Notes: generated by a model from the sequence alone, not told the origin. A stretch of DNA of 64,000 nt from a virus (IMGVR_UViG_3300021399_000005:1-64000), one strand, 5' to 3'; positions 1 to 64,000 are shown, counted from the stretch's first letter. Made by a program: numbers and translations.

Positions 1-850
1 TATGGAGATTGATTTAGTTCTTGGAACAATAAATTCTCATGAAGTGGACTCTGTTTTATATGCAAAAGAAATTGCAGTTTTAACTCAAATACAAACAAAT
101 GAAGGAACAACCATCAATGAAAAAACAGCAAGCATAAATAAAGATGGATTAAAAGTAGATGGTTCTGCTGAAGTAACAGGAACAACTATTTTAAAAAATT
201 TAACTACGAGTGGAAGTACGTCTATTACAAATGATTCTGAAAAAGGATTATCTGTAAATGAAGATGAAGTAGTTCTTGTCGGTGCAACATTAAAAAGCTG
301 TATTTTAGAGGGAGATTTTAAAGCGGAAAAAGCTACCATTAAAGGAGTTACAATTGAAGATGGTTCAATTAAATGAACTGAAGCTGGTAGTGAAGATTCT
401 CAAAATGAAATTTTAAACTTAGAGAAATTACAATTCCACGAAGGAAAAGGTTTGATTTCTAATTTGCGCACATTAAATTTCCATACCGATGCTGGTGCAA
501 TATCTAACATTCGAACCCTTGATTTTAATACTAATGTGGGTTCAATATCTAACTTGCGCACGCTGGGTTTTGTGGGAAACGCAACCGCGACGGGGCTTTC
601 TACTTTGACTTTTGCGCAGAATGGTCAAATTTCAAGTTTAAATAAAATAACTTTTTCGGGAAATAATTCCGCAGTAACAGGATTAAACTCATTAGAAACT
701 AATGAGTTAATAATAGACAACAAAGAACTTAAACAAATTAAGATTCCTTTGAAAGAGGATACAAATGGAAATCTTATTTTTGATAAAGAAGCAACAGAAT
801 CAAATTATACTTCTGTATGAGTCTTTGTTGAGAGAGAGGAAGGAGATTAA
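1..850 (+). CDS. C-terminal part of a tail/virion protein with ~15-aa beta-helix-like repeats (5' truncated; TGA=Trp)
   Basis: Track ORFs 2..376 and 452..820 share a frame and are joined by TGA; reads through TGA 818-820 to TAA 848-850; repeats ISNLRTLNF/ISNIRTLDF/ISNLRTLGF. Confidence 0.65.
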
Positions 851-854
851 GGAA

Positions 855-1016
855 ATGAATAATAATGAAGTAAAACGACAGTTATCAAGCATTATTAAAG
901 CTTTATCAACAATTGCTGTAAGAGGCGATGACGTTTTAACTCTTGCGCAAGTATTTCAAGGTTTAGAATACACTATTGAAAACTTAAAAGATGAAGATAT
1001 TTCAAAGGAGGAATAG
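855..1016 (+). CDS. Small hypothetical protein (53 aa)
   Basis: AGGAG upstream of ATG 855; ends TAG; tightly packed between neighbours. Confidence 0.6.
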   Translation: MNNNEVKRQLSSIIKALSTIAVRGDDVLTLAQVFQGLEYTIENLKDEDISKEE

Positions 1017-1019
1017 TCT

Positions 1020-4000
1020 ATGGCAAATATAACAATATATCCTCCTATTATAGATGGTATTCTTCCAGCTTTTATAAAAAATGAAAAAGGAGAGGGGCAA
1101 TTAATTGTCCCTTTTACTTTTAATGCTGCAACAACGCAAGGGGATTATACTAGTGCAGTAATAAAAGTAAAAACAATTCAAGAAGATGTTGTAATTACTC
1201 AAGCAGAAACAAATACTATAGATTTAAATGAAAGTTGAGCAGTTTTTGATTTAACTGAACCTGTTGGAGATGGAAACAAAACTTTGGGAGACTTCTTTGA
1301 AATTGGTGCTCATTATAAAATTCAACTTGCTTTAAAAAATGATGTTACAATAGGGTGATTTTCTTCTGTAGGAGTAATAAAATGTACTTCTCAACCAAAA
1401 GTAACTGTTTTTGGTGGTGGTGGAGAATCCGCTGTTGAATTGGATGAAAATTATGGTAATCAAAACTATCCTTATTTTATTGGTGTTTATTCTCAGGGAG
1501 ATGGGTCAGAAGATACTTCTTCCTATTTTTATGATACAAATGAACGTATTTATTCTAGTTATTTTGAATTATATACAAAAGATGAGGATAATAATAAAAT
1601 TTTGGTAGAAAAAAGTGAAGAGGTTATTCACAATGGAACTCTTGACACAAATATTAATGAAGCAAGAGAAGAATGGTATCCTTCTATTGATTTAAATTCT
1701 GGAGAGAATTATTATATAAAATTTCATGTAACAACTGTTAATAATCTCCAATGCGCGAGTGTTAGTTATCCTGTTTTTGCAACAGAAGCAATTCCATTAG
1801 ATATTCCAGCAGACCTTGAGGTTGATTATGATGAAGAAAATGGTGTTGCCGCACTTTATTTTAAAGCTCATAGTCCTTCTGCTAGAGCAACTGGAAGATT
1901 TGTAATATCAAGAAAAGATATTAATTTAGATAATAACTGAAGAATTGTATATAAATTTTCACTTGCAACTGAATTGCCAGATGGTTTAATTTGAAGAGAT
2001 TTTACTGTTGAACAAGGAGCAACCTATTCTTATGCTATTCAACAATTTAATGAATCAAATGTATATACTGGAAGAAAGATTTTTACTTATTATAATGAAA
2101 ATGGTTTTCCACAGGAAGAACTAACAATCAAATTTGACCATATGTATCTTTTTGATGGTGAAAAACAGTTAAAAATAAAGTTTAATCCAAAAGTTTCATC
2201 TTTTAAAACACAAATTTTTGAAGCTAAAGTGGATACTATAGGAAGTAAATATCCTTTCTTTTTGAGAAATGCGATGGTGGCCTATAAAACTTTTCCTATT
2301 TCTGGTTTAATTTCTATGTTAATGGATGATGATGAACTTTTTACTTCTTATGATTCAATTGAAAGACCTTATAGAAATCAAACAAGAGAAAAAACTCCAA
2401 ATAGAGTGAGTTCTTTATATAATTATACTGAAACTGATTTAAGCTGGAAGAACATTGAATCAGAAAGATTGTTTAAATTAAAAGTTTTAGATTGGTTAAA
2501 TGATGGAAAGTTGAAGCTATTTAGATCGCCTCAAGAAGGAAATTATTTGGTGCGATTAATGGAAAATTCTTTAACTCCAACAGATAGTTTAGGAAGAATG
2601 ATTCATACATTTAACTCAACTGCTTATGAAGCAGATGATGTATCTTATAATACTTTGGTTAAACATAAAATTATTTCAATTCCTACAAGTTTAAATACAA
2701 TGAGTCAAAAGGTAAAAACGGTTCAGTTAAAAAATTATGCGGTTTATGATAATAATCATAAATTAACAGGGGTGGAAGATATTTTAAGGTATTCTGTGGA
2801 AATAGAAATTGGTGAAGCTAAAGTTCCAAAATGGTTTTCTCGTTATGAAGGCCCTATTACTAGAATAGACTTAAGAGATATTTTACCTGGTACACAATTT
2901 AAAGTAATTTTTTCTAAAGATCGTGAAAGAATTATTACGATAGGAAAAACAGGTGCATATACTGTAAAAGATATTAACCCAATTCAGGGTTTGCAAATTT
3001 TATTACCAGAAAAAAGTGGAAACTATGAAATTCCATTTAAAACAGGAACAGTTTATACAAATATTTATGAAAGAGTTTTAAAAGGAGATGCGCAAATCTA
3101 CTATCAAGCAACTTCTACAACAGGATTTGATTCTATTTCTGGAGAAAAGGTAGACCCTCAAGCCTGCGCGCAAATATTAGATAGTCCAACCAATTTTCCA
3201 AATAATTTATCAAATATTGCAGAACGACCAGTAAAAATTAATTTACTAAATGTTCACAAAAAAGATATTGTAAATTTATATGTTACATTAACAAAAGATG
3301 GCACATTGCCGGATCCGTTTGGAAGTATATCTTTAACAAATGAAGAAAATTATATGCCAGATAATGCAAAACCTCTTTTATATTTTGATAGAGATTGTAG
3401 GTATCAAGTTTTTAAAGACACAAACTCTGAATATAATTTAGTTCCTAATGCTTTATACAATATTCGCTTTGTGCGTCCAGAGCATTTACCTTTAGACCAC
3501 GGAGTAGAAAGAGTTGTAATTCCAGAAAAACAAGACCCAAATGCTGAAATGGCTGATGTGGGTGGTTTGGGCCAAACATCAACCGTAACACAAAGGGAAA
3601 GTGCAGATGCATTTTATGTGTCAAGACAAGAAAAAATGGATAATATTGATAGACTTTCTGGAGATTTGTTCTGACAAAATGATTTGTATTATGAAGAAAC
3701 TAAAGATAGTGAAAATGTTTATTATGAAAATCTTTTAGATTACCTTTATGATGCAAGAACAAATAAATTAATTAAAAAAGAAGATTGAGACCCTTCTTTT
3801 ACTATTGTAACAAAAAGACAAAGTACAAAAATAGATTTAAGAGAAATTGAAAACTATAAGCTAAAAGAATTGATTCCAAATGAAGATTTTGTTTCAATTA
3901 GTTTTGGAAATGGTGTTTATGCAGATTGTTTTTATCAAAACCTTCATTTGACTTATGTTTTTCAAAATCAAGCTTCAAAATACTTTAAATCTGATGCTTA

Positions 4001-4145
4001 TAAGGCTACAATAGATTATGAAAAAGCTTTAAATAATTGAACTCCAAGTAATCCCTCTATTGAGGATATAGAGCTAAAAAAAGAAAATTTAGTAAATACG
4101 TTACAAGGTTATTATGATCAATGAATTTCATTAGAGGAGGAATAA
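1020..4145 (+). CDS. Putative tail/baseplate structural protein, 1041 aa (TGA=Trp)
   Basis: ORFs 1020, 1440 and 2142 are co-frame and separated only by TGA; first TAA at 4143-4145; GGAGG RBS; structural-gene context. Confidence 0.75.
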
Positions 4146-4148
4146 AAT

Positions 4149-7040
4149 ATGAAGAATCCTTTACATGACAAAATTTTTTTAAGAAATTTAGACTTGCATC
4201 ATAACCATAACATTCATGCAAAAATAATTGTTTTAGATTTTAATGAAAATCCAAAAGAAGAAATTACTGGAAGGGTTACTGGCGGTTCCATTTCTGTAGA
4301 TGGCACTTCTGTTGTAAGAAGAACTTGTTCTTTAACTATGGTTGCAAAAGATTTAAATATGTCTAACTATATTTGAGGATTAAATTCAAAATTTAAATTA
4401 GAAATAGGATTAGAAAATGAGATTGATGAAAAATACCCCAAAATTATTTGATTTAAACAGGGAATTTTCTTAATTACAAGCTATAATATTTCAACTTCTT
4501 TAAATAATTATACTATTTCAATTCAAGGAAAAGATAAAATGTCTTTATTAAATGGAGACATTGGAGGAGTTATTACTCAAATAGGTGTTGACTTTGCGGG
4601 AATATATGAGGTAGAATACTCTGGCGCGACAGCGACGACAGTAAGAAAGAAATTCCCTATTAAAGATATAGTTTTAAATGCCGTTCATGACTGGGCTAGA
4701 GAACCTTGACATAATATTGTTGTTAATGATTTAGATGATTATGGTCTTGAATTGCTAGAATATCAAGGAGATAATCCGCTTTATCTTTTTATTACTAAAA
4801 ATGCAGTTGACACTACTTCTGGAGCGAGAGAAGTTAAACAGATGTATTTTGAAAAAGATGATGTAGATGTATATTTTGAAGGATTCCCTAATACAGTTTT
4901 TAAAATTAGGGATTTAGAAAATGCTGAAATCGGTGGTACCTATGACCCGCTTTTAGACGATTCGACCATTGGAAAAGACTTTCAGAGTGTTGCTTCTCGT
5001 GTTTGTTTAGTGGGAGACGAAACCAATGCCGCATACACAGTTTTTAAAGCAGAAAAGGGGTCTGTTGTTGGGTATCGTTTAACAGACATCACATATGCAG
5101 GAGAATTAATTCTTAATGTTGGTTCAACACTAACTCAAATGTTAGATAAATTAGTTCAAATGTTGGGTAATTTTGAGTATTTTTATGATGTAGATGGTCG
5201 TTTTATTTTTCAGAAGAAAAAGACTTATGTAGATGTTTCTTGAAACTCTATAAATGGAGAGCATAATTTTTCAACAGAAACTTATGCTAATAATGCTTTG
5301 CAAACATCTAGAGAAGTTTATCGTTTTGAAGATGATTACCTAATTTCTTCATTTCAAAATACTCCAAATCTTTCGAATTTAAAAAATGACTTTTCTGTTT
5401 GAGGGGTTCAAGAAGAAGCTGGATCTTCTGTTCCAATTCATATCAGATATGCAATAGACCACCGACCTTTAATGTATCGAATTATAGGATATAGTGATTT
5501 AGTAGATTATGATGATGAAAGTCAAAGTCTTATTTATAAAAAAATATCTTATAAATATCAAGGTAGTTTTTCTCCAAAAAAATCTGGTATACCAACAGAA
5601 GAAAAAGAAAGGTTTATTGAAGGAAATTTTTATATAAAAACAGAACTTGGAGATTACATTATTCCAGATTGAAGAAGTGATGATATATATTCTCATCCTT
5701 TTGCTTATTATATAGCAGAAGAAGAAGATACTGGACAAGACTATAATCTAGTTTTTTTAGCGTCTTCAGATGTGCCTTATAAAAAACAGGAAGAAAAAGA
5801 TATTGTTTTTGTTGTAGATTGAAGAGAAATTATTTATCAAATGGCAATGGACTATAGAGCACATGTTCAAGAAGATGATTTTTTGCAAAGAGTAGCTCAA
5901 AATAATTTAATGGAAAATGGTGTTTCATATTATCCAACAGGTTGAACGGGGTATGAGCAGTATTATCAAGATTTTGAAATGGCTTCAAGACATAAAGTTC
6001 AAGCTTCAGCAAAAACAAGTGGAGGTTTTCCTATAAATCAACAAAAAATAATTAGTTATTGAAGGGAAATTTATAATCCATGTCTTGCAATAAAAGACCA
6101 CTTTCTTAGTAAAACTGACCCAATATGAAGAAATACCTATAAGTACAATTCATTGGGGTGGAGAGAGGATATACAAGATAATCCTCAAGCAATTCATTTT
6201 TGATTTGATTTTTTAGATTCTTATGGAGAAATAAACAGATATTCAATTCCAAATATAGGAACAAGGTCAAAAGCGGTTAATGATAATAAAGTAAAAGCCA
6301 TTTATTATAGAGAAATTCCAAATGTAATTTATAGGATGTCGTCTGAAGATATAGATAAAGAAAGCTTAAAAGAACAGAATTGAGTTAAACCTGGTTATGT
6401 TTATCTTCAGGTTTCAGACGATAAAATGGGTTGGTTTACTATGAGCGCACAAGGCAAGAGCGCAATAGATGTTTTAAAAGAATGGCTAAGCGATTATACT
6501 TATTGTACAGAATCTGTTAGTTTTTCATCTACGATTCCTATTTATTACCTTGAACCGAATACAGTTGCGTTGATAAAAGACAATGATACTGGAGTTAGTG
6601 GATATTATGTAATAAAACAATTTACAATTCCTCTTGACCCAAAGGGGCAAATGTCTTTAACCGCAACAAAATTAATGAATTCTTCTAATTCTTTGGTTGG
6701 CGAAAGCAATCCTTTAGATATGACTACTGTTATAGATACAAGTCCTTCTCAACAGAATTTATTAGAAGTTCAAAATCCAGAATTTATTATATCTGTAAAA
6801 GAAGACTCTGAAACTAAAGATGGCATTCTTTACATTACACAAGGTAAAAATGAACCAGAAAAAGATAGAGATATTCGTATTGCAGTAAAAGAAAAGGATG
6901 GTCAAGAAGGTCTACCTGAAGAAGAAAAAGAATATATTTTATATATTGATAATGCGAACAGAGGAGATAAAGAAGCTGAGGCTTCAATAAAACTTGACGA
7001 GATTATCAAAGAATATTTTGAGAATGAAAAGAAAGGATAA
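4149..7040 (+). CDS. Putative tail/baseplate hub-type protein, 963 aa (TGA=Trp)
   Basis: ORFs 4149, 4752, 5472 and 6426 are co-frame and joined via TGA; N-terminal 'EEITGRVTGGSISVDGTSVVRRTCSLT' and C-terminal 'IPIYYLEPN..GYYVIKQFTIPL' resemble phage tail hub proteins. Confidence 0.7.
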
Positions 7041-7047
7041 AAGAAAA

Positions 7048-7437
7048 ATGGCAAGAGATATTTTTCAATTTCGTTATTATAACGATAACAATCCTTTAAA
7101 TTGACCTATTGGGGCAACGTTTGAGGACTGGTCGGCTTCGACAACCGCAAGTCCAAGTGCAAAAGCATTTACAGATTTTAGTGGGGAAGGAGAAAAAATC
7201 CCCACTAAATCTTCTATTATTCAGCTTGGGATTCAAACAATACCGGGGACCAAATTTTATTTAAATGGTTCTAAATATCCTATTACTGTTGGTGTGACGG
7301 GTATTTATGAAATATCTTTAGAAGATAATATTACTATTGAGTCCTTGGTTTTTAATAGAATCTCAATGGAAAGAATAAAGGATAATGATGGAGCGTACCT
7401 CATTGTGGATATGCTAGTGAGAGAGGAGGAAGATTAG
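7048..7437 (+). CDS. Hypothetical structural protein, 129 aa (one TGA=Trp)
   Basis: Missed by the track; ATG 7048 to TAG 7435-7437; 'IQLGIQTIPGTKFYLNG..ITVGVTGIYEI' resembles an internal segment of the 1020..4145 protein. Confidence 0.7.
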
Positions 7438-10400: not shown

Positions 10401-11400
10401 ATATCAGTTATTGGCCATGACCTCTTTTAGCGCATCAGAGCCACAAGAAGAAATATATGGAAAACTTTATTTTTCAAATCTTTATAAATTGCCTGCGAAT
10501 CCAGGTTTTTCTTATGTAAAATTTAGAAATAGCCAACTTGTTACATTAAAACCAGGAATAGACTTTGATGCTAATGAAACTCGACCAAATATTACAAGTT
10601 ATTTAAAAAATATTTATTCTGAAGATGAAAATTTGTATTTTACTAAAATTTCAAACAGTTCTGAAATTCCGGGAAGAGATTTTTTAATTTTTACAAAAAA
10701 TGCTGAAACAAATACTTTTATCCCTCAAAGCTGTACTTTTTCAGATAGTATTATAAATCAATCTTTAATTTCTGCTGGGCCTGAATATTTGAGAGGTTTC
10801 TTAATTTATCAGGGAGAATATTTATGGCCTCAAAACATGGAAAGTAATGATTACTATGTTTTAAATACAGAAATTTCATTAAAAGAAGAAATAGACAGTA
10901 ATAAAGATATTAAAGAATATAACTCTTCAGATGATGTTGCTTTTGGTTATAGTAAAACAGATGTAAAATTCTTAATAAAAGCCTCTGTTGTTTTGGGTGC
11001 CACAGTTAATCAAAATCCAATTTTCCCAGCAGTAGATAAGGCATCTGTTAGTTTTAGAAGAAATGCTTATGTAGGAAGAGTAAGTTCTTCAGATTCAACG
11101 TTCTTTTTAATTTGTTCAGAAGCTGATTTTGCAAGATGTTCTGAAATAAGAGAAATAAAATGGACATTGGTGACTCCAAATATTGAAGATTATAGAGTTT
11201 TAACCCTTAGTAAAAATGGACTAAAATTTTCTTCTTTACAAATTGGAGAAAACAATATTTTAACAGAAGACTCCTCTGGTTCATTGGTTTTAAATGATAA
11301 TAGAGTTATTTATGATAATAGTAGAGTAACTTGAGGACTTGAAAATCCTGATGATAACAATGGAAAAATAGGGGATTTATATATACAATTAAGAGAGTAA
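7438..11400 (+). CDS. Large acidic putative virion protein, 1320 aa (TGA=Trp)
   Basis: ORFs 7438, 9244 and 10411 are co-frame; ends TAA 11398-11400, followed by a terminator. Confidence 0.7.
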
Positions 11401-11423: not shown

Positions 11424-11441
11424 TAGAAAGGAGGAGTTTTT

Positions 11442-52514: not shown

Positions 52515-52770
52515 GTACTTTTACATCGATTTGGTTTCTTCCAAATCTACTCCCTTCTATTATTTTCATTTCTTCTTTTACTTTTTGACCTTGCCAACCA
52601 ATAAGATGAACATTAAAAGTATTTTTCTCATAACATAATGAAACTAATGCTTTTGGCAATTCTTCAATAGTAAACTCACCTATTGTTTCATTTGGTCTTC
52701 CAACATCTTCTTTATATTTTACTTTATGTTTATATACAAATTCATTTACATTACAGTTAATTACTGACAT
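52507..52770 (-). CDS. Hypothetical protein, 87 aa
   Basis: ORF track; coupled overlaps; Trp=TGG. Confidence 0.7.
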   Translation of the reverse strand: MSVINCNVNEFVYKHKVKYKEDVGRPNETIGEFTIEELPKALVSLCYEKNTFNVHLIGWQGQKVKEEMKIIEGSRFGRNQIDVKVHE

Positions 52771-53261: not shown

Positions 53262-53285
53262 TAAAAAGCTCCTTTCTTTATTATT

Positions 53286-53314
53286 ATTATATCATATTTT
53301 TTTAAAAAAATAAA
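53286..53314 (-). promoter_or_regulatory. SigmaA-type extended -10 promoter
   Basis: TTTATT-17-TATAAT with TG extension. Confidence 0.55.
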
Positions 53315-53327
53315 AAACCGAGAGTTT

Positions 53328-53882
53328 TTAAGAACCCTCGGTTAATAACTGTTGTAAGAATAGTGCACCCGCCGTATTGCCTAAAACTATTGTTAAATAT
53401 TTTATTATATTTATAAAACTAATATTAATTAAAAGGTATGGAAAATCTGCAATACAGTGTTCAGCACCAATTAAAATAAATCCCATTACACATAAGACTG
53501 TTATTAAATCTTGTTTTATTGTTACTGCTAAATGAATTAAAATTCCGCATAAATAGGCTTTTGCGAATAATGCCAAAAAGTCTTTTGAAAATTTTGCGGC
53601 TGCCGCAGTTTTTAATAATTCAGCTAAATTCTCGTTAGCTATACAAGAGAAAAAAACTAATGCTCCTACTCCAATTAAGTTTAAGAGTAAAACTTTCGTT
53701 TTATAATTCCAAGTAAATTGAGGAAAACCAACTTTTCCAGTAAATAATGGAAGTTTTAATTTTATAATAGATAAAAGTCCAAGACTAAAAAGAAAACTTC
53801 CTATAATTGAATTTTCTGCGGTTAAGTTGGCAACTACGCCAATTCCAATTAATATTCCAGCTAAAACCATTATCTTCTCCAA
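53328..53882 (-). CDS. Formate/nitrite transporter (FNT/FocA-like), compact form
   Basis: LAGILIGIG, FSLGL..LFTG, CGILIHLAV, FILIGAEHCIAD, GNTAG motifs; multiple TM segments; start at 53882 or 53870. Confidence 0.85.
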   Translation of the reverse strand: MEKIMVLAGILIGIGVVANLTAENSIIGSFLFSLGLLSIIKLKLPLFTGKVGFPQFTWNYKTKVLLLNLIGVGALVFFSCIANENLAELLKTAAAAKFSKDFLALFAKAYLCGILIHLAVTIKQDLITVLCVMGFILIGAEHCIADFPYLLINISFINIIKYLTIVLGNTAGALFLQQLLTEGS

Positions 53883-56800: not shown

Positions 56801-58219
56801 CATTAAAGCATGAGAAATTTTTTCTTTAGTTTCTTTATTCATAGAAAATACTTCTCCGCCAGAAGTAGAATTATATCCATATTCTCTATTCATTGCATTA
56901 AATTTTTGTATAAGTTCTTGCTCTTTTAAACAAGCTTCTTCTTTTGTTAAATTAGTAAACAAAATATTATGTTCAAAATTATCCCAACCATATTTTTGAA
57001 TTGCTGAATAAAAATGAGGACTTGATTTATAATTGCATCCATTTGAACCCCATCTTCGTTCTGGTATTTGAGATGTTATGCCAATATAAACTTTATTATT
57101 TATTTTATTTTTATGTTGATAAACAATATACATAAAGCCCTCCTTTCTTTTAAATAAATGATACGAATTTAGCACGGAGTTGTCTACGAGAGAGTTTCTC
57201 CGTTTAGGTAACTATGTTCTTAACATTACTGTTAAGTCGCCCTAATATTTAAGGTTGTGGTACATACCTTCAACGGCCTGGTGAATTTCTTTTTTTGTCA
57301 TTGCCATTGCATATTTATGAGCGCTTTTGTCTGCGTACAAACTATCATTATAAATTGAATAATCCTCTGGGTCTATATTATAAGTCCAACACTGTGGGTC
57401 TGTTTGTTGTTCATTAATACAGATTCTATCAGGTTCTCCATTAAAAAAGCTTATTTTTTCTGGTGTTAAAAAAGTTAAACCATCTAAATAATGTTTCCAA
57501 AAAGATTTTCTTACATATGGCACCATAGTCCAGTCAATATGGCTTGCGGAAACTCCTCCAAATTGTTGTAAAGATTGAAGCTGAAAAATTACTGCAACAA
57601 GTTGAAAAGCAGTATTTACTGAATTGGCTGGACGCACATCAGTTTGACGAGTATTAAATCCTTCCGCAAGTAACTTATCAAAAGGAATCGTAAGACAATT
57701 ATGCATTCCGATTGCGTAACTGTCTAAGTCATGAATATAAATGTAATTATTTAAATGATTATTTCGTGACATTTCTGACATGCAATAATCAAGAGCAAAT
57801 TTCTTGGTTAAGACTCTATTAGCTTCACCCATTCTTCCACCAAAAGAGCGTTCATCAACATTAGCATTTTGGTTTTGAACATCAGTTGCATCAAGTTTTT
57901 TTGCAACTTCTTGCATAAACTGAGTATTATATTCTCTTACTTTTGTTCTATCATATCTATATTTAATATATGCTCTAGCAACATCTTTTCTTTTACAAGA
58001 CATTAACCCCTGTTCAACCAAATCTTGAATTTCTTCAATTTTTAACATATGGTCTTGTTTCTCAGCATAATCATAAATATAATCTGCAATGTTTTTTGCT
58101 TTTGTCATGGCATATTCTTCTATCTTACCATCAACATCCTGGAAAGCAGCTAAAACTGCACTCTCAATTTTACTTTTGTCAAAATTTTTAATTCGACCAT
58201 CTCGTTTAATAATTTTCAT
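53870..58219 (-). CDS. nrdD: Anaerobic (class III) ribonucleotide reductase, three exons (58219-57252, 56300-55964, 54880-53870; 771 aa spliced)
   Basis: ATP cone, YIHDLD..NC, HNL^NTLQSRSGNQLPFTSINYG, TMG^CRT, TPAENLC, CxxC..CxxC, RRVTGYL glycyl-radical motif; exon lengths sum to 2316 nt, in frame. Confidence 0.95.
55004..55768 (-). CDS. GIY-YIG homing endonuclease in intron 2, 254 aa (three TGA=Trp)
   Basis: AGGAGG RBS; MIIYKITNTKNNKVYIGQT...SRW(TGA)KRH...E...GYN; TGA at 55690, 55543 and 55237; TAA 55006-55004. Confidence 0.85.
55791..55840 (-). promoter_or_regulatory. Candidate late promoter inside intron 2
   Basis: TTTGGACAATTTT-N24-TAAATAAAAATGA, same spacing as 38617-38667. Confidence 0.45.
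56301..57251 (-). mobile_element. Group I intron 1 of nrdD (951 nt)
   Basis: Splits AAC-CT^T-AAT-ACA; U before and G at the end; CTAACGACTA (R) and GAAGATATAGTCT (S). Confidence 0.9.
56453..57133 (-). CDS. GIY-YIG homing endonuclease with NUMOD3/NUMOD1-like repeats in intron 1, 226 aa
   Basis: MYIVYQHKNKINNKVYIGIT..RRW..GYN; 'SEEKKKKIS' repeats; AGGAGG RBS; both Trp are TGG. Confidence 0.9.
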   Translation of the reverse strand: MYIVYQHKNKINNKVYIGITSQIPERRWGSNGCNYKSSPHFYSAIQKYGWDNFEHNILFTNLTKEEACLKEQELIQKFNAMNREYGYNSTSGGEVFSMNKETKEKISHALMGNKNGLGHACSEEKKKKISNAQKGRKFTDEHKQKLSIAAQNRHVPCSEEKKKKLSQNYPNKRKVYCEELNTVYESVQECSRQLGIPATNISKLCNGRGKTLKGYHLKYYDDTINA

Positions 58220-58312
58220 TTAAAACCTCCTAATTATTTAAATTATTTCTAGGATTCTATATTGATCCAAAATATTATAACAAATCTTTTAATAAAATTA
58301 AATAAAAATAAC

Positions 58313-58339
58313 CAAAAGAGAGGAATCTTTATTCCTCTC
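58313..58339 (-). terminator. Intrinsic terminator after dnaE
   Basis: GAGAGGAAT-aaag-ATTCCTCTC-TTTT on the - strand. Confidence 0.65.
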
Positions 58340-61300
58340 AAGCTCCTTGCGCTCTTGCTGAAGTTAAGCTAATATCTTTTCCATCATCAGAAATAGAAGT
58401 AATTCTATATAGCTGATGGTTTTCTTCATCGTCTTTTCTCTTATATTTTTTTGCCATAAAAGAATCTTCTGTTTTAATTCCCTGAATAACAATTAAACTT
58501 CCTCTATCAAACCAACTTTTTTCAATAATATGTTTTTTACCATCTTCTCCAAGAGCAGAAATTCTTTTATCAAACAAAGCGAAATGTTCTTTTCTAAATT
58601 TTACTTCAACAACACCTTTTGGAGTTAACAAAGTAATAGAAGAATGACTCTTATTTTTAGCAATACAAGTTCCATAAATTTTATGAAGTTTAAAGATATT
58701 AATTTTTCTACCATTTTTAGTAAAGAAGCTTCTTTCAACCTCTTGTTCTTCTGGTAAATCAAAGAAATCTGACAAACCATATTTTTCTTTATTTACATTA
58801 ATTAATTCATGTTCATGGTAATAAAAACATAATACCTCCATTTCCCAAGAAGAAATAGAACCTTTTGCATATTTATTCCAACTTTCCATAAAGATTTTTT
58901 CATTTAAACTTTGAAGAATTTCTTGACTATTTTCTTTTAACCAATCTCTAGCGGGATCCATATATCCTTGATAATACTTATCCCATTTCTTTAAGTCTAA
59001 AGTTTTATCTGGTTCAATTAAAAACTCTAAATCTATTGAAGTTAAAAAATCTATTGCCCTATTATCTAAATGTCCATTTTTACAAATTGCTCTTAAATAT
59101 CTGTTAAATTCAAATACTCTCTTTTCAAAGTTTAATTCTTCTGGAATCATTCCACTTTTCACTAACCCGGCAAAATTCTGTAAGGTTAATCTTTTTTTCT
59201 TTTCACAAGTTTCCCAAATAAACCATGCCATTACAAATTTTCTATCATAAAATTGGTCAAATGCGCCAGCCTTAATTAAAGAAATCATGGCAGTTTTATT
59301 TAATTTTACTTTTGAATAAAAATCTTTTGGAGAAACGTAAGGTCTATTTTTTAATATTTCTTCCACTACGTTTTCACCGACATCCAAAATTCCATTTAAA
59401 CCAAACATAATGACATTGTCTTCAATATTTGGAGAAAAAGTTCTTTGAGATTTATTAATATCAACTAATCCTATTTTAATTCCTGCGGCTTGAATATCAC
59501 CTAAAGCCTTTGCAATTTTTCCATAGTTTGTGGAACCTCCTGTTAAAGCCCCACTATTAACTCTTAAACATGCAGTATTCCAAAATATTGGATTATAGTT
59601 TGTGCCAAGATACAAAGTCTGTACACCTACGAAGGAGTACGCAAGCGAATGAATTTTTGAAAAAGAATAACCCATCTGTGGACCAACCCCAGCTCTCCAA
59701 ATATATTCACCCAACTTGTGAGATTTTGCTTGCGCCAATACCTTTTGCCGCAAAGCTGGAATTTTATCCATTTGCTTCTTTCCTACGATCTTTCTGGCGC
59801 GATTTGCTTCCCCCAATGTGAAACCGCAAATATTTTCATCCATCAACATTAACATTAACTGCTCTTGGCTTGGAGGTACTCCATAAGAACTTTTGAAATA
59901 TGGTTCTAAAGTTTTTTCCTCTTCTTTTGTTAAACCAAAGTTATCCATTTCTTTATACCATAAATCAATATTATTTTTAAATCTTACATATTTATCCATT
60001 GGCTGCTCTTCTCCAGGACTTGATGTCATTAATCTCATCAATCCATTACAGTCACTCATTTCTTCAATTGTTCTTGGTTTAATCTTTGCAGCTGCTCTTG
60101 CGCCAACAGATGAATCAAACTGAAATGTATTTAAAACAGAACCCTTTTCTAAAGCATTCCAAATTCTTTCATCATTTAAATTTAATACATTTGGATGTAA
60201 ATATTTATCATAAACTTCTTTTAAAGTTAAATCTTTATCAATTTCTCCATACTCCTGTAACAAATTTATAGTTTCAACAATTTTATCTTGTACATCAGTA
60301 ACTAATATATCAAATTTTGTCATACCAAGATGTTCACATTGATGAAGATCCCATTGAGTAATAATATCTCCACTTGGAGTTTTCATAAATGCACCAAATT
60401 CATATGGATTTTCGTCAAAGAAAATTACACCTGATGCATGACTACCTCTTTGCTTAATCAAATTCTCTATTCCAAACATAATATCCAAAAGTCCAGGATA
60501 TTGTTCTACTTCTTCAATGAAAACTTTTACTGGTTTTCTACCTTTTTCTTTATTTCCATACACAACATCTTGTAAACTCCAAATAAAACCTCTTTCTACT
60601 GGTACAAGAGAAGATAAATATTGAGCTTCATCAACATCTATTCCCTGTGGAAAATCTTCACTTCTATATCCTCTACATGAAGTTAAAATTGCGCTTTTGG
60701 TTGATTCGGTTCCGAACGTTGCCACCAATGTGCAACCCAAATTTTCTCTAGACAAATCATCTAAATCATCATTAAAATTCTTACTTCTTTCTTCCCTAAT
60801 CTTCTGCAATATTAAAGGACGTTTACTTGGACATACATCTATATCAATATCTGGTAATTCTACACGGTCTTTATTTAAATATCTGAAAAAAGGTAAATCA
60901 TGTTCTATTGGGTCTAACTGTGTTACGCCTAATAAATAATGATTCAATCCCGAACAAGACGAGCCTCGGCCTGCTCCAACCGTACTTCCGCACTCCCAAA
61001 TTAAATCAATGTAATGTTGTAAAGTAATTGGATAATCAAACATATTTGAATCTAATTCTTTTCCAATATATGCTTTAACCTCTGCTTCTTCTTCTAATCG
61101 ACCTAAATAAATATTATTATCTTTTCCTAATTCTTTAAGCTTTTTTAAGCATTCATTAACCCAATATCTTTCATGATTGTTTTCAGATTTTCTCATATTA
61201 TAAAGATTTGGATATTTTACCAAAGATTTATCATCAAATTTTTGACTAAAAGGAACCTCAACCCTTGGGATTTGTTGTTTATGAAAAATTGAATATTGTT

Positions 61301-62177
61301 CAATTTTATCATAAATTTCTTCACTATTTTTAACCATTTCTTCATAGTCTAATCCAGATGCAGACAAATGTTCTATTAATTCTTCTTCTGTTTGAAGATA
61401 AGAATATTCATAAAAAGAATCTACTTCTCTTTCTCCTTGTTTAGAATTTAAATATGCCTTATGAACATATCTGTCTTCTTTCTTTAAAAAATGAGCGTCA
61501 CAACCTATTACCATTTTTCTATTATAAGTTCGTGCAATTTGTTTAAGACGCTTATTTACAATAATTTGTTCTGTTGAACATCCAGGCGCACATTCTACAT
61601 AAAAATCATCTCCAAAACATTCGATACAAAAAGTTATGTAGTTATGGATTTGTAATTTTTTTTCTTGTGCTAATTCAGTATTATTATTTTTTTCTGCTTC
61701 TGTTAAAGCTAAAATTGTTTGTCCCAATTCTGAACCAATACAAGCACTAGTCGCAATTAAATGACCTTTTCCAAACTTTTTTATTTTCTCTTGTAATTCT
61801 GATTTTAAAGTTGGAACTCGTTCCAAACCTCTATCCATATAAGAATTCATCCAAGAATAAGAAGAAAGTTCTTTTAACATTTGAAAACCCACTTTATCTT
61901 TTGCAATTAAGATAAAGTGGTAATATTTTGTTTTTGGTTCTCTTACATCTGTTAAATAAATTTCATTTCCTATTGCAATTTTAAAATCTTTATCAATTTG
62001 CTCTTGATATTCTTTAATCTCAACCGCTGCGCACAAACACTCATGATCTGTAATAGCAATTCCAGATAAACCAAGTTCTATGGCTCGGTCTATGAGATTT
62101 TTAGGCTTATTAATACAGTCGATCAATCTGATGTTGCTGTAGTGAGTGTGCGAATGTGGTTCGAAGCGACGACCCAT
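58338..62177 (-). CDS. dnaE: DNA polymerase III alpha subunit (family C), 1279 aa (1282 aa if the terminal TGA is read through to TAA 58331-58329)
   Basis: PHP motifs HSHTHYS, AITDH, GNE; GRGS, PDIDID, HASGV, KFDIL, YSFSKIHSLAYS. Confidence 0.95.
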   Translation of the reverse strand: MGRRFEPHSHTHYSNIRLIDCINKPKNLIDRAIELGLSGIAITDHECLCAAVEIKEYQEQIDKDFKIAIGNEIYLTDVREPKTKYYHFILIAKDKVGFQMLKELSSYSWMNSYMDRGLERVPTLKSELQEKIKKFGKGHLIATSACIGSELGQTILALTEAEKNNNTELAQEKKLQIHNYITFCIECFGDDFYVECAPGCSTEQIIVNKRLKQIARTYNRKMVIGCDAHFLKKEDRYVHKAYLNSKQGEREVDSFYEYSYLQTEEELIEHLSASGLDYEEMVKNSEEIYDKIEQYSIFHKQQIPRVEVPFSQKFDDKSLVKYPNLYNMRKSENNHERYWVNECLKKLKELGKDNNIYLGRLEEEAEVKAYIGKELDSNMFDYPITLQHYIDLIWECGSTVGAGRGSSCSGLNHYLLGVTQLDPIEHDLPFFRYLNKDRVELPDIDIDVCPSKRPLILQKIREERSKNFNDDLDDLSRENLGCTLVATFGTESTKSAILTSCRGYRSEDFPQGIDVDEAQYLSSLVPVERGFIWSLQDVVYGNKEKGRKPVKVFIEEVEQYPGLLDIMFGIENLIKQRGSHASGVIFFDENPYEFGAFMKTPSGDIITQWDLHQCEHLGMTKFDILVTDVQDKIVETINLLQEYGEIDKDLTLKEVYDKYLHPNVLNLNDERIWNALEKGSVLNTFQFDSSVGARAAAKIKPRTIEEMSDCNGLMRLMTSSPGEEQPMDKYVRFKNNIDLWYKEMDNFGLTKEEEKTLEPYFKSSYGVPPSQEQLMLMLMDENICGFTLGEANRARKIVGKKQMDKIPALRQKVLAQAKSHKLGEYIWRAGVGPQMGYSFSKIHSLAYSFVGVQTLYLGTNYNPIFWNTACLRVNSGALTGGSTNYGKIAKALGDIQAAGIKIGLVDINKSQRTFSPNIEDNVIMFGLNGILDVGENVVEEILKNRPYVSPKDFYSKVKLNKTAMISLIKAGAFDQFYDRKFVMAWFIWETCEKKKRLTLQNFAGLVKSGMIPEELNFEKRVFEFNRYLRAICKNGHLDNRAIDFLTSIDLEFLIEPDKTLDLKKWDKYYQGYMDPARDWLKENSQEILQSLNEKIFMESWNKYAKGSISSWEMEVLCFYYHEHELINVNKEKYGLSDFFDLPEEQEVERSFFTKNGRKINIFKLHKIYGTCIAKNKSHSSITLLTPKGVVEVKFRKEHFALFDKRISALGEDGKKHIIEKSWFDRGSLIVIQGIKTEDSFMAKKYKRKDDEENHQLYRITSISDDGKDISLTSARAQGA

Positions 62178-62210
62178 TTCATCATCTTCCTTTCCCTTAT
62201 TTCTATATAT

Positions 62211-62239
62211 ATTATATCATAGCTTTAATATTTTGTCAA
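62211..62239 (-). promoter_or_regulatory. Consensus sigmaA promoter for dnaE
   Basis: TTGACA-17-TATAAT with TG extension. Confidence 0.85.
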
Positions 62240-62244
62240 AAAAA

Positions 62245-63396
62245 CTAGTTTTTTATCACGACTAATTTTTCTACTGCCCTTGTGCATGCTGTGTATAACC
62301 ATCTTTTATGGTCATCTTTCTTAAATGGAAAATTTTCTTCAATAACTAAGACATTATCCCATTGACTGCCTTGCGCTTTATGACAAGTAATAGCATAACC
62401 ATAAGCAAAAGGAACAATTGGATATGGAGCGCCTTTTATTTCTTCTGGAGTAAAAGCTGGAACGCCAGTTAGAAAAAGTTGTTTATCAATATAAACACAT
62501 TCAAACATAGCATAATAAGAATCATATCCTTCTGGCATGAGGTCTATACAATATAATACTCTACCATCGTCCAAATGTAATTCAGATAAATATTCAACAG
62601 TTCCAATAGTTCCATTTACCATACTTTCTCCAATCATATTAGAAGAGTTCCATATATTTTTCAAACAAATAATTTTATCTCCTAGCTGCAACTCTTTTGG
62701 AACATTAGTACCCCAAATGTATTGCCTAATTAGATTATTATAATAATCTCTTTGTTTATTTGTAGCTACTAAAACTTGGTCTGCCCAAGTCAACATTCCA
62801 GAAACTAATTTACTCTTACTTAAAACTTGAACTTCTGTACCTTTTTGCTCTGGTAAATTTTTACCTTCTCTAATACGCAAACTTAAATCTATAATCTCTG
62901 AATCCTGTGCCTGTCTTACAATTTCATCTAAAAAGATATGTGGGTCGTCTAAAACATTATTTTCTTTCCGAACCGGGGGAAGCTGTGCTGGATCCCCAAG
63001 AGCTAACACATGTACTGGATGAGATAGTAATAATTCCCACATATCAAGTGGTAACATTGAAACCTCATCAACAACTACAATTTTGTATGGCTTTTCTAAT
63101 TTTTTTCTAGGATAAAAACGATAGGAACCATCTTTTAATTGTCTAGCATGATAAAGCAATTTGTGCGCAGTTACAGCATTTTCATTCCCATGCTCTCTTA
63201 ATACTAGGGCGGCTTTGCCCGTGAAGGAAACATAAACTACTTGAAAAGAAGGAATGCCCAACGCTTGAATGATATAACTAACCAGCGTTGTTTTACCCGT
63301 ACCAGCCATTCCCGCAATAACGGTGTATTTTTTATGTTCTTTATATCGTTGAAGAGCAATTTCCAAACCCTTTTGTTGCTTGTCAGTTAATTGCAT
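62245..63396 (-). CDS. RecD/Dda-like SF1B helicase, 383 aa
   Basis: GMAGTGKTT, VVDEVSM, GDPAQLPPV, RQ, YAITCHKAQGSQW, LYTACTRA. Confidence 0.9.
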   Translation of the reverse strand: MQLTDKQQKGLEIALQRYKEHKKYTVIAGMAGTGKTTLVSYIIQALGIPSFQVVYVSFTGKAALVLREHGNENAVTAHKLLYHARQLKDGSYRFYPRKKLEKPYKIVVVDEVSMLPLDMWELLLSHPVHVLALGDPAQLPPVRKENNVLDDPHIFLDEIVRQAQDSEIIDLSLRIREGKNLPEQKGTEVQVLSKSKLVSGMLTWADQVLVATNKQRDYYNNLIRQYIWGTNVPKELQLGDKIICLKNIWNSSNMIGESMVNGTIGTVEYLSELHLDDGRVLYCIDLMPEGYDSYYAMFECVYIDKQLFLTGVPAFTPEEIKGAPYPIVPFAYGYAITCHKAQGSQWDNVLVIEENFPFKKDDHKRWLYTACTRAVEKLVVIKN

Positions 63397-63427
63397 ACCT
63401 TTTGTTTTATCCTCCTTTTCTTTTTAT

Positions 63428-63456
63428 ATTATATCATATTATTTATTTATTTTCAA
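63428..63456 (-). promoter_or_regulatory. SigmaA promoter for the helicase
   Basis: TTGAAA-17-TATAAT with TG extension. Confidence 0.75.
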
Positions 63457-63643
63457 TATTACATGTAATTTCCCAGGTTGATCCCATATATTTAGGGCAA
63501 ATTCTTGCCATTAGCATACAAACTCCACAAGGTAATAGGTGAGGGCATTCTGGTGTATCTTGATAATACGATTTTGAATCGGCAGTAGAGGTAGAATCGC
63601 TATAAATCAATTTTGAATTAGTAGTTGTTTTGTTATTAAACAT
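63443..63643 (-). CDS. Small Cys-rich protein, 66 aa
   Basis: AGGAGG RBS; CPHLLPCGVC....CP motif. Confidence 0.65.
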   Translation of the reverse strand: MFNNKTTTNSKLIYSDSTSTADSKSYYQDTPECPHLLPCGVCMLMARICPKYMGSTWEITCNIENK

Positions 63644-63757
63644 AAAATTTCCTCCTGTTTTTTAACTAATTTTTTACATTCTAACATTTGCTCTTAAAAA
63701 TTCCTAGAAAGATTTTTGTTCCAGGTGCGGAGAAGCCGCCATCAGCGCCACAAGCAA

Positions 63758-64000
63758 CTAGAAATAGTATTCTTGTTTTTCTTCTATTGAATAATCTTCT
63801 ATTAAAATTTGAGGAGCATTATCCCAGCCCGTATTTTTAGAACATCTTCCAATAATATCTACTTTTACATAGCCATCTCCAGGGTTTAAATCTTCGTATT
63901 CACTTTCATTTGCTTGGAATTTAATTGCTGTTAAACTTGAGCTTGAGAAAGTAAATTTTAAAGTGTTTTTATTTTTTCCTAGTAAAGAGAGATTGTTTTT
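63758..64000 (-). CDS. C-terminus of a probable RecJ-like ssDNA exonuclease (truncated by the window edge)
   Basis: Open frame ..GKNKNTLKF..VDIIGRCSKNTGWDNAPQILIEDY..YYF-TAG resembles the RecJ OB-fold end; replication context. Confidence 0.5.
   Translation of the reverse strand, partial: KNNLSLLGKNKNTLKFTFSSSSLTAIKFQANESEYEDLNPGDGYVKVDIIGRCSKNTGWDNAPQILIEDYSIEEKQEYYF

What the first reader, a model, noticed from the sequence alone, without database searches (positions are those of the whole stretch)
1..64000. Two genetic codes in one genome: TGA=Trp confined to late genes
Seen: + strand fragments fuse into gap-free, RBS-led genes ending in TAA/TAG when TGA is read through. TGA sits at family-conserved Trp sites (CHAP QCWD, lysozyme GLVQWT, VYVWRRTA, GIY-YIG RW), which indicates Trp rather than Gly or Sec. 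By contrast DnaE (16 Trp), the helicase (6) and NrdD (6) use only TGG despite the AT-rich genome. Established: stop-codon recoding biased to structural and lysis genes is known in gut phages of standard-code hosts. Inference: the host uses code 11 and the phage switches code during infection.
Basis: partly seen in the sequence, partly recalled or inferred. Interest (0 to 1): 0.8.

Follow-up and report, generated by a model that had tools for sequence, protein, structure and literature searches.

The report
Phage late genes read TGA as tryptophan
This 167-kb phage writes its tail, baseplate and lysis genes with the stop codon TGA meaning tryptophan while its replication genes stay readable in the standard code, which is a habit already described for gut and rumen phages; the new part is that its own TGA-reading tRNA gene sits in this window, split by a self-splicing intron that hides it from tRNA finders.

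Summary
On the + strand (1-49,596) ORF coverage rises from 0.48-0.71 under code 11 to 0.94-0.99 under code 4. These 30 genes hold 204 in-frame TGA and 74 TGG. The minus-strand replication block (51.7-64 kb) holds 37 TGG and only 4 TGA: three in an intron homing endonuclease and one as the DnaE stop.

TGA means Trp. Over 33 homologue columns W scores +141 bits and the next residue, Y, -23. TGA also aligns mostly to TGG-encoded W in a standard-code relative.

The decoder is in the window: a tRNA-Trp(UCA) gene at 50,252-50,537, split after U34 by a 211-nt group I intron (Rfam RF00028, E about 5e-9). It recurs, with ten compensatory pair changes, in a second TGA-recoded lineage.

The host was not identified. 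All indirect evidence points to a walled, standard-code Firmicute.

The pattern matches the TGA-recoded 'Agate' phages of Borges et al., including the recoded intron endonuclease, so the dual code itself is known. I found no report of an intron-split suppressor tRNA.

Other follow-ups of this scan reached the same reading on overlapping windows of this same genome.

The parts
1..49596 (+). Late (virion and lysis) gene block written with TGA = Trp: 30 ORFs, 26 of them with in-frame TGA; 204 TGA against 74 TGG. It continues across the circular junction to about 138.3 kb of the genome.
   Evidence: Positive GC skew throughout.
13853..20953 (+). Giant 2366-aa virion protein with CotH-like and BspA-LRR domains; 15 TGA, 19 TGG.
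25534..27903 (+). LamG-domain tail-fibre-like protein; 19 TGA, 1 TGG.
   Evidence: Pfam Laminin_G_3 full-length hit spanning TGA codons; tally.
30112..32580 (+). LamG-domain tail-fibre-like protein; 20 TGA, 3 TGG. It was used for the column tally.
   Evidence: TGA sits in columns with W in 78/79, 54/57, 79/82 and 13/13 homologues.
34593..37118 (+). LamG-domain tail-fibre-like protein; 18 TGA, 4 TGG.
37288..38610 (+). Baseplate protein with a Gp10_C domain; 5 TGA, 0 TGG. Contains the motif VYV-TGA-RRTA.
41833..42687 (+). Second Gp10_C baseplate protein; 6 TGA, 1 TGG.
43970..46258 (+). Tail-associated lysozyme (Phage_lysozyme2, like phi29 gp13); 18 TGA, 2 TGG.
   Evidence: TGA lies opposite W in 73/77, 121/138, 143/145 and 37/48 homologues, and opposite 4 W of the solved phi29 gp13.
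46249..47709 (+). Endolysin, CHAP + GH25 muramidase; 7 TGA, 7 TGG.
   Evidence: TGA at aa 56 lies opposite W in 106/107 homologues.
47750..49596 (+). End of the lysis cassette: a CW_7 cell-wall-binding protein (47750-48385, no TGA) and a 399-aa protein of unknown function (48397-49596; 12 TGA, 3 TGG).
49849..50220 (+). Hsp20-like small gene with no TGA; the last protein gene of the + block.
50199..50226 (+). Sigma-70-like promoter match (TTTACA, 16 nt, TATCAT), 26 nt upstream of the tRNA. It is followed by a GC hairpin at 50228-50245. A consensus match only.
   Evidence: sequence.
50252..50285 (+). tRNA-Trp(UCA) exon 1: acceptor 5' strand, D arm, anticodon stem 5' strand and C32 U33 U34.
50286..50496 (+). 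211-nt group I intron with no ORF, inserted between U34 and C35 of the anticodon.
   Evidence: RF00028: 40 bits, E 6e-10 and 4.6e-9. Its core matches the tRNA-Met introns of other phage contigs. Ten compensatory pairs.
50497..50537 (+). tRNA-Trp(UCA) exon 2: C35 A36, the rest of the cloverleaf, G73 and an encoded CCA.
   Evidence: The spliced product is a canonical 75-nt cloverleaf, by ARAGORN and by minimum free energy.
50582..50611 (.). Bidirectional intrinsic terminator where the + late block and the minus block converge.
50598..51795 (-). The two most downstream genes of the minus block, both recoded: an unknown 199-aa protein (2 TGA) and a RuvC-like resolvase (51250-51795, 3 TGA).
   Evidence: The homologues in the second lineage (L253) carry 4 TGA each.
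51743..64000 (-). Replication and nucleotide-metabolism block readable in the standard code: dUTPase, an FNT-like channel, nrdD in three exons, DnaE (58338-62177, which ends in TGA followed by TAA three codons later) and an SF1 helicase. It holds 37 TGG and no sense TGA outside the intron endonuclease.
54882..55964 (-). nrdD intron 2 (group I) carrying a GIY-YIG homing endonuclease (55004-55768) with 3 TGA and 0 TGG. The intron is absent from a 98%-identical contig.

Best explanation
The window is 38% of a complete, circularly assembled 166.8-kb virulent-type phage genome with GC 33%.

Its virion and lysis genes, plus a few others, use TGA as a tryptophan codon; TGA makes up 68% of their Trp codons. 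These genes lie on the + strand from 138 kb through the origin to 49.6 kb. The others are a resolvase and homing endonucleases.

Its replication genes use only TGG for Trp, avoid TGA in frame, and still use TGA now and then as a stop. Early genes can therefore be translated by an unmodified standard-code host. Late genes, with up to 20 TGA each, give full-length protein only once UGA is decoded efficiently.

The decoder is phage-encoded. It is a tRNA-Trp with anticodon UCA at 50252-50537, at the very end of the late block. Its gene is interrupted between U34 and C35 by a 211-nt group I intron, so the functional anticodon exists only after self-splicing.

Shown here:
- the codon pattern;
- TGA = Trp;
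- the intron and the cloverleaf;
- conservation of the split gene in a second TGA-recoded lineage.

Inferred, not shown:
- the host is a standard-code Firmicute;
- the spliced tRNA is charged with Trp by the host TrpRS;
- the tRNA outcompetes RF2;
- the arrangement delays late and lysis proteins.
For: Codon pattern:
- ORF coverage and ORF fusion under code 4 against code 11.
- Per-gene tallies and Fisher p = 7e-51.
- (TGA+TGG) makes up 1.52% of late codons, against TGG alone at 1.35% of early codons.

TGA = Trp:
- PDB alignment to phi29 gp13.
- 33 TGA columns give W +141 bits.
- Opposite TGA in the standard-code relative G003: 40 W, 14 Y, 6 F.

The decoder:
- ARAGORN with introns allowed.
- RF00028, E about 5e-9.
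- The spliced product is a canonical cloverleaf, and only the U34|C35 junction satisfies 'exon ends in U, intron ends in G'.
- Orthologous split genes in IMGVR_UViG_3300021426_000456 and in two metagenome contigs. They have 10 pairs changed on both sides, including acceptor pair 2-71 U-A to G-C, and their flanks are also TGA-recoded.

Assembly and clade:
- An independent contig spans late block, tRNA and early block at 98% identity.
- No RF1, RF2 or TrpRS gene in the genome.
- Relatives by DnaE (58-67% identity) are standard-code or TAG-recoded.

Host:
- TGA stops make up 14-17% in standard-code relatives. In this phage's early block they are about 10% or fewer, and TAG is 25%.
- Firmicute signals: GGAGG RBSs, DnaE closest to Enterococcus and SPbeta-like phages, and endolysin relatives in Erysipelotrichaceae and Streptococcus genomes.

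Literature: the same pattern is described for Agate phages.
Against: - The host was not identified, and no CRISPR-spacer search was possible.
- No transcript or peptide data exist, so splicing, charging with Trp and timing are all untested.
- The RF00028 score (40 bits) is below Rfam's gathering cut-off of 50, and a first 2-kb scan missed the intron altogether.
- I could not resolve the P1 helix or internal guide sequence by eye. The splice site rests on the U/G rule and the cloverleaf.
- Genes with about 20 UGA need more than 90% read-through per codon. Nothing in the genome that would neutralise host RF2 was found.
- A sigma-70-like promoter match directly upstream of the tRNA would, if real, let the decoder be made early, which would weaken a sharp 'switch'.
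- Four relatives defined by DnaE lack the split tRNA.
Confidence: 0.8

Rival explanations
1. The host itself uses code 4 (TGA = Trp), so there is no code change. The phage simply shares its host's code, and the early genes avoid TGA for some other reason.
For: The host was not identified here. The GC content is low (33%), as in code-4 Mollicutes. Endolysin relatives occur in Erysipelotrichaceae, a lineage near the Mollicutes.
Against: - About 70 early genes hold 205 TGG and essentially no sense TGA, while out-of-frame TGA is abundant. A code-4, AT-rich setting would favour TGA everywhere.
- DnaE and at least 5 other early genes end at TGA.
- The phage carries its own UCA tRNA.
- It carries a CHAP+GH25 endolysin, a CW_7 wall-binding protein and a tail lysozyme, which need a peptidoglycan wall.
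- Clade relatives use TGA as an ordinary stop, or recode TAG instead.
Confidence: 0.04
2. The split tRNA(UCA) is a decaying or non-spliced gene. UGA would then be read by something else, such as the odd phage tRNA-Trp(CCA) at 105961-106036 (a Hirsh-type near-cognate reader), host tRNA-Trp, or an undetected factor.
For: An irregular tRNA-Trp(CCA) with a 6-bp D stem exists in the tRNA array. Borges et al. found a suppressor tRNA in only 35% of code-4 phage genomes. Splicing is untested.
Against: - The exons give a flawless cloverleaf with every stem paired, G73 and an encoded CCA.
- The exons are identical across two lineages except for one compensatory acceptor pair, while the intron has diverged to 79% identity with its helices kept. 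That is purifying selection, not decay.
- The intron retains the catalytic core.
- Near-cognate reading by a CCA anticodon would hardly carry ribosomes through 20 UGA per gene.
Confidence: 0.1
3. The recoding is real but is not a timing device. It would be a by-product of AT-biased drift once a suppressor was present, concentrated in fast-evolving tail and lysis genes. Alternatively it could be a barrier that stops hosts, co-infecting phages or recombinants from using these genes.
For: - TGA share is highest in the most variable genes: tail fibres at 19:1, 20:3 and 18:4.
- It is low in the head-module genes at 139-149 kb and in the 2366-aa protein (15:19).
- TGA columns are less conserved than TGG columns: 43% against 60% W in G003.
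- A host-type promoter match lies upstream of the tRNA.
- Code differs among close relatives.
Against: - Complete absence from about 70 early genes needs selection, not drift.
- Homing endonucleases and the resolvase, which are not fast-evolving virion genes, are recoded too, as are the resolvase and its neighbour in the second lineage.
- The same module bias recurs in unrelated phage clades.
Confidence: 0.2
4. Artefact: a chimeric assembly of two phages with different codes, or late genes that are pseudogenes.
For: It is a metagenome-assembled genome.
Against: - Only TGA interrupts the frames, 245 times, and never TAA or TAG.
- Pfam domains run across the TGA codons.
- The contig is circular with a 127-bp overlap and has uniform GC.
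- Independent contigs cover the junction between the late and early blocks.
Confidence: 0.01

Closest known systems
TGA-recoded 'Agate' phages of Firmicutes (Borges et al., bioRxiv 10.1101/2021.08.26.457843; later Nature Microbiology 2022)
   Same: - Large virulent phages of about 127-154 kb.
- TGA = Trp in structural and lysis genes, with DNA replication genes in the standard code.
- Tail and lysis-proximal genes are the most recoded.
- A group I intron homing endonuclease inside an early gene is preferentially recoded.
- TGA stops are depleted and TAG stops raised.
- Close relatives use the standard code or TAG recoding.
   Different: This genome is somewhat larger (167 kb). Its suppressor tRNA is split by a group I intron, which that paper does not describe; it found suppressors in only 35% of code-4 genomes.
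'Jade' phages with a code-change operon (TrpRS + RF1 + suppressor tRNA; same paper, Fig. S6)
   Same: TGA to Trp in a Firmicute host. The code-change element lies next to the lysis cassette and is itself free of TGA.
   Different: This genome has no TrpRS, RF1 or RF2 gene. The only code-change part found is the tRNA.
TAG-to-Gln recoded crAss-like and Lak phages (Yutin 2021, PMC7886860; Peters 2022, PMC9523058)
   Same: Stop-codon reassignment biased to late genes, phage suppressor tRNAs and a standard-code host.
   Different: A different codon and amino acid, and Bacteroidetes hosts. Peters et al. validated only TAG to Q by proteomics. I found no such validation of TGA to W in the papers I read.
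Code 4 of Mycoplasma and Spiroplasma, with tRNA-Trp(UCA)
   Same: The same codon meaning and the same type of decoder anticodon.
   Different: There the code applies genome-wide, RF2 is lost and the cells lack a wall. Here the use is module-specific, in a phage that carries wall hydrolases.
Group I introns in bacterial tRNA anticodon loops (cyanobacterial tRNA-Leu(UAA) and tRNA-fMet, Azoarcus tRNA-Ile; reviewed in PMC3984707)
   Same: A small ORF-less intron in the anticodon loop. The insertion after U34 matches the position I recall for tRNA-Leu(UAA) introns. The core sequences are shared with tRNA-Met introns that I found in phage contigs.
   Different: The interrupted gene is an opal-suppressor tRNA-Trp, and it lies in a phage. 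The 2014 review states that all phage introns then known were in protein-coding genes.

Membership tests
Phage with late-gene TGA-to-Trp recoding (code 4 type, sensu Borges et al.) | In-frame TGA concentrated in structural and lysis genes, and reading TGA as sense restores contiguous genes | tested here: met
Phage with late-gene TGA-to-Trp recoding (code 4 type, sensu Borges et al.) | TGA aligns with tryptophan in homologues, not Gly (code 25) or Sec/Cys | tested here: met
   W scores +141 bits over 33 columns. Against the standard-code relative, 40 of about 93 TGA positions lie opposite TGG-encoded W.
Phage with late-gene TGA-to-Trp recoding (code 4 type, sensu Borges et al.) | Replication (early) genes readable in the standard code | tested here: met
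   No sense TGA in about 70 early genes except intron endonucleases.
Phage with late-gene TGA-to-Trp recoding (code 4 type, sensu Borges et al.) | Phage-encoded UGA suppressor tRNA | tested here: met
   tRNA-Trp(UCA) at 50252-50537, split by an intron. ARAGORN with default settings does not find it.
Phage with late-gene TGA-to-Trp recoding (code 4 type, sensu Borges et al.) | Host uses the standard code | tested here: inconclusive
   Indirect evidence only. The host was not identified. A search for its tRNA-Trp body in 401 genomes of the class of Absicoccus intestinalis, one of the endolysin-relative genomes, found nothing.
Phage with late-gene TGA-to-Trp recoding (code 4 type, sensu Borges et al.) | Trp inserted at UGA in the proteins | not testable with these tools
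   Needs virion proteomics.
Agate clade | Placement in the large-terminase phylogeny of Borges et al. | not tested
Pfam did not identify the terminase among nine large code-4 ORFs outside the window that I scanned (eight of 139-154 kb and the 888-aa one at 115.7-118.4 kb).
Group I intron (Rfam RF00028) | Match to the covariance model at or above the gathering score | tested here: not met
   40 bits against a cut-off of 50. The match is nevertheless full-length with E 4.6e-9 to 6e-10, so it is significant but sub-threshold.
Group I intron (Rfam RF00028) | 5' exon ends in U, intron ends in G, and excision restores a functional product | tested here: met
   A unique junction gives a canonical cloverleaf.
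Group I intron (Rfam RF00028) | Helices supported by covariation | tested here: met
   Ten pairs are changed on both sides between the two lineages. These are only two independent lineages, so the evidence is one contrast deep.
Group I intron (Rfam RF00028) | Self-splicing activity | not testable with these tools
   Needs an in vitro splicing assay or RNA-seq.
tRNA-Trp | Cloverleaf with Trp identity elements | tested here: met
   One search shows G73, A1-U72, G5-C68 and A9. That these are the Bacillus subtilis TrpRS identity elements is from my own memory, not a tool result. The alignment evidence for Trp is independent of it.

The most novel reading that the evidence does not exclude
Self-splicing of the suppressor tRNA is a working part of the code switch. 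It would set when or how fast UGA decoding appears, or shield the anticodon region of the gene or precursor. In addition, intron-split or otherwise hidden suppressors of this kind would account for a good share of the roughly 65% of TGA-recoded phage genomes in which no suppressor tRNA has been found.
Probability: 0.15. Interest if true: 0.75.

Novelty: new variant of a known kind. Interest (0 to 1): 0.45.

Why it matters
The dual code is already in the literature. On that point this is a clean, complete, circular example that standard pipelines would mis-annotate: code 11 leaves about 40% of the late region apparently non-coding.

What the window adds is the decoder. The suppressor tRNA is invisible to default tRNA finders because a ribozyme interrupts its anticodon. 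That gives a concrete explanation, which can be tested, for 'missing' suppressors in recoded phages. It also ties two kinds of RNA-level trick together in one element, namely code change and self-splicing.

Finally, it offers a compact system for testing experimentally whether stop-codon recoding really times late and lysis gene expression. The parts are a 286-nt gene, TGA-rich lysis genes and a Gram-positive host.

Tried and rejected
- ARAGORN with default settings on the window and on the genome found no UCA tRNA.
- I first dismissed the intron-containing ARAGORN hit, because a 2-kb Rfam scan gave no tRNA or intron match.
- Two other low-threshold 'tca' calls, at 97450 and 106662, lie inside ORFs. 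The region of the first gave no Rfam match.
- RF1, RF2 (PCRF and RF-1 domains) and TrpRS: none in the genome.
I used IMG/VR relatives instead.
- Other IMG/VR tRNAs that ARAGORN labelled '(tca)' or '(tta)' with introns (L190, L218, L231, L174, L192, L210) re-parse by hand as Glu(UUC), Lys(UUU) and Met/Ile(CAU). They are not suppressors.
- RF00028 found no split tRNA in four DnaE-defined relatives.
- I asked whether early-gene TGA stops are backed up by a nearby TAA or TAG. The median distance is 4.5 codons against 11.5 for other stops, p = 0.07, which is not significant.
- Host search by the tRNA-Trp body in 401 genomes of the class of Absicoccus intestinalis, one of the endolysin-relative genomes, gave no match. 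'Relatives' cannot be drawn for a virus record.
- Pfam gave nothing for most head and neck genes.
- I could not assign the P1 helix or internal guide sequence with confidence.

Full report
WHAT THE WINDOW IS

The window is bases 1-64,000 of a single 166,804-bp contig. The contig has a 127-bp terminal overlap and GC 32.6%. IMG/VR classes it as having direct terminal repeats and as 100% complete. GC skew is positive from 1 to about 48 kb and negative from 52 kb on, which marks two convergent transcription blocks.

THE OBSERVATION

Under code 11 the + strand of 1-49.6 kb is a litter of short ORFs. Under code 4 they fuse into abutting genes of up to 2366 aa.

Greedy ORF coverage in the first five 10-kb bins rises from 0.61, 0.71, 0.61, 0.48 and 0.53 to 0.98, 0.99, 0.97, 0.94 and 0.94. 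From 60 to 80 kb it is 0.97-0.98 under both codes. Making TAG sense instead does much less.

All code-4 ORFs end in TAA or TAG, and nearly all have a GGAGG-type ribosome-binding site.

Tallies within the window:
- Late + genes: 204 TGA, 74 TGG; 26 of 30 genes are affected.
- Minus-strand genes from 51.7 to 64 kb: 4 TGA, 37 TGG.

Genome-wide tallies:
- Late genes: 245 TGA and 117 TGG in 47 genes.
- Early genes: 17 TGA and 205 TGG in 74 genes (Fisher p = 7e-51).
- Out-of-frame TGA is common in early genes, so the avoidance is specific to the reading frame.
- (TGA+TGG) makes up 1.52% of late codons, about the same as TGG alone in early genes (1.35%). TGG alone in late genes is only 0.49%.

WHAT TGA MEANS

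I translated TGA as X and looked at what homologues carry at those positions.

- In the tail lysozyme, four X align to W of the solved phi29 gp13.
- Against 150 representatives at no more than 50% identity, the same columns are W in 73/77, 121/138, 143/145 and 37/48.
- Endolysin position 56 is W in 106/107.
- A LamG fibre protein has TGA in columns that are W in 78/79, 54/57, 79/82 and 13/13.
- Summed over 33 TGA columns, the log-odds are W +141 bits, with Y next at -23. Eleven TGG columns give W +58 bits.

Some database homologues may themselves have been translated with code 4. I therefore repeated the test on relatives whose DNA I fetched. In the standard-code relative G003, TGA positions lie opposite 40 W, 14 Y, 6 F and 6 L. 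TGG positions show the same profile: 108 W, 20 F, 19 Y. Gly and Cys/Sec are excluded.

WHICH GENES ARE RECODED

The block encodes:
- LamG tail-fibre-like proteins;
- two Gp10_C baseplate proteins;
- a phi29-gp13-like tail lysozyme;
- a CHAP+GH25 endolysin;
- a CW_7 protein;
- a giant CotH/LRR protein.

The TGA:TGG ratio is most extreme in the fibres (19:1, 20:3, 18:4), the tail lysozyme (18:2) and the unknown gene after the endolysin (12:3). It is milder in the giant protein (15:19) and in the head-module genes outside the window.

TGA is not strictly confined to the + block. The two most downstream minus-strand genes are recoded: a RuvC-like resolvase and its neighbour. So is a GIY-YIG homing endonuclease inside nrdD.

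nrdD is in three exons, at 57242-58219, 55965-56317 and 53870-54881. Intron 2 (54882-55964) shows three things:
- it gives a weak RF00028 match;
- it obeys the U/G rule, and joining exons 2 and 3 gives an open frame;
- it is precisely absent from a 98%-identical contig.

THE DECODER

Default tRNA searches find 24 tRNAs and a tmRNA at 102.8-114.1 kb, but no UCA anticodon.

With introns allowed, ARAGORN calls a tRNA-Trp(tca) at 50252-50537. My parse is:
- exon 1, 50252-50285, ending in U34;
- a 211-nt intron, 50286-50496, ending in G;
- exon 2, 50497-50537, starting at C35.

The spliced 75-mer is a perfect cloverleaf. It has the anticodon loop CU-UCA-AC, G73 and an encoded CCA. Of the five junctions that give the same product, only this one satisfies the group I rule.

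RF00028 matches 50290-50467 over the full model at 40 bits, with E 6e-10 and 4.6e-9. This is below the curated cut-off of 50, and a larger scan missed it.

The core sequences are shared with group I introns that split tRNA-Met genes in other IMG/VR contigs.

An orthologous split tRNA-Trp(UCA) is present in three further places:
- IMGVR_UViG_3300021426_000456, at 79% nucleotide identity; its proteins are 26-97% identical, it is syntenic, and it is also TGA-recoded (0.86 against 0.51 coverage);
- two GenBank metagenome contigs.

The exons of the two lineages differ only by a compensatory acceptor pair. Ten predicted pairs are changed on both sides.

A sigma-70-like promoter match and a GC hairpin lie just upstream. 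A strong bidirectional terminator lies just downstream.

The genome encodes no RF1, RF2 or TrpRS.

THE HOST

The host was not identified. These points favour a walled, standard-code Firmicute:
- strong GGAGG sites;
- DnaE is closest to Enterococcus (41.6%) and SPbeta-like Bacillus phages;
- endolysin relatives occur in Erysipelotrichaceae and Streptococcus genomes;
- the phage carries a peptidoglycan-hydrolase arsenal;
- the early genes are TGA-free, and some stop at TGA, DnaE included.

Relatives found through DnaE (58-67% identity) fall into two groups. Two use the standard code, with TGA as 14-17% of stops. Two are TAG-recoded, with TAG most often opposite Q. In this phage's early block, TGA stops are 8 of 76 and TAG 19 of 76, a shift from TGA to TAG.

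COMPARISON WITH WHAT IS KNOWN

Borges et al. describe exactly this pattern for the Firmicute-infecting 'Agate' phages:
- TGA = Trp in structural and lysis genes;
- a standard-code replication module;
- a preferentially recoded group I intron endonuclease in an early gene;
- depleted TGA stops;
- standard-code and TAG-recoded close relatives.

They detected TGA suppressors in only 35% of code-4 genomes.

Peters et al. validated only TAG to Q by proteomics.

I found no paper describing a suppressor tRNA split by a group I intron. A 2014 review states that all phage introns then known were in protein-coding genes. My pattern scan, in contrast, found at least 80 IMG/VR loci that combine a group I core motif with a downstream tRNA T-arm. 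ARAGORN reads 64 of them as intron-split tRNA genes, mostly Leu(UAA), Met(CAU) and Arg.

VERDICT

The dual code is a known phenomenon and this genome is a new member. The intron-split decoder inside the window is the part that looks new.

Other follow-ups of this scan reached the same conclusions on overlapping windows of the same genome. One of their notes made me re-test the tRNA hit that I had dismissed.

Noticed in passing
window 53870-58219 (-): The anaerobic ribonucleotide reductase gene nrdD is split into three exons by two introns, each carrying a GIY-YIG homing endonuclease (56453-57175 with no TGA; 55004-55768 with 3 TGA). Intron 2 (54882-55964) is precisely absent from a 98%-identical contig and from the second lineage, so it is a mobile, polymorphic intron.
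   Followed up: yes
window 53328-53882 (-): A formate/nitrite-transporter-like gene (Pfam Form_Nir_trans, E 2e-16) lies directly downstream of nrdD. Formate is the reductant of class III ribonucleotide reductases, so this may be a phage-supplied formate channel.
   Followed up: no
IMG/VR loci L164-L283: At least 80 viral contigs combine a group I core motif with a downstream tRNA T-arm, and ARAGORN reads 64 of them as intron-split tRNA genes (Leu-UAA, Met-CAU, Arg-UCU, Asn, Ser, Thr and others). A 2014 review (PMC3984707) says no phage tRNA introns were known. Some of the contigs may be misclassified bacterial DNA.
   Followed up: partly
G001 (IMGVR_UViG_3300045988_152410) and G004 (IMGVR_UViG_3300013936_000013): Two relatives with 58% DnaE identity are TAG-recoded. 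ORF coverage is 0.67 under code 11 and 0.89 under code 15, and TAG lies most often opposite Q. ARAGORN at default settings, without introns, called no CUA tRNA. The clade therefore holds standard-code, TAG-recoded and TGA-recoded members.
   Followed up: partly
G003:C1 about 152000-152560 (IMGVR_UViG_3300043105_000140): The otherwise standard-code relative has one gene with 8 in-frame TGA. It is the homologue of the minus-strand ORF at genome 150528-151316 of this phage (7 TGA, 0 TGG). This could be incipient recoding, a dead gene or a mis-called ORF.
   Followed up: no
genome 102839-103143 (-) and 105961-106036 (-), outside the window (L001): A phage-encoded tmRNA (Rfam, 64.7 bits), and an irregular tRNA-Trp(CCA) with a 6-bp D stem that scores better on the tRNA-Sec model (28.5 bits) than on the tRNA model.
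   Followed up: partly
genome 110146-111002 (-), outside the window: Relaxed ARAGORN calls a tRNA-Leu(UAA) with a 771-nt intron that holds a 170-aa ORF (110294-110806). RF00028 did not match there, so the call is unverified.
   Followed up: no
window 13853-20953 (+): A 2366-aa virion-module protein combining a CotH kinase-like domain and BspA-type leucine-rich repeats.
   Followed up: no
window 50240-50545: A methods point: cmscan over 2 kb at E <= 10 did not report the group I intron, whereas the same model over 306 nt, or through the genome search, gave 40 bits. Filter settings can hide sub-threshold ribozymes.
   Followed up: yes
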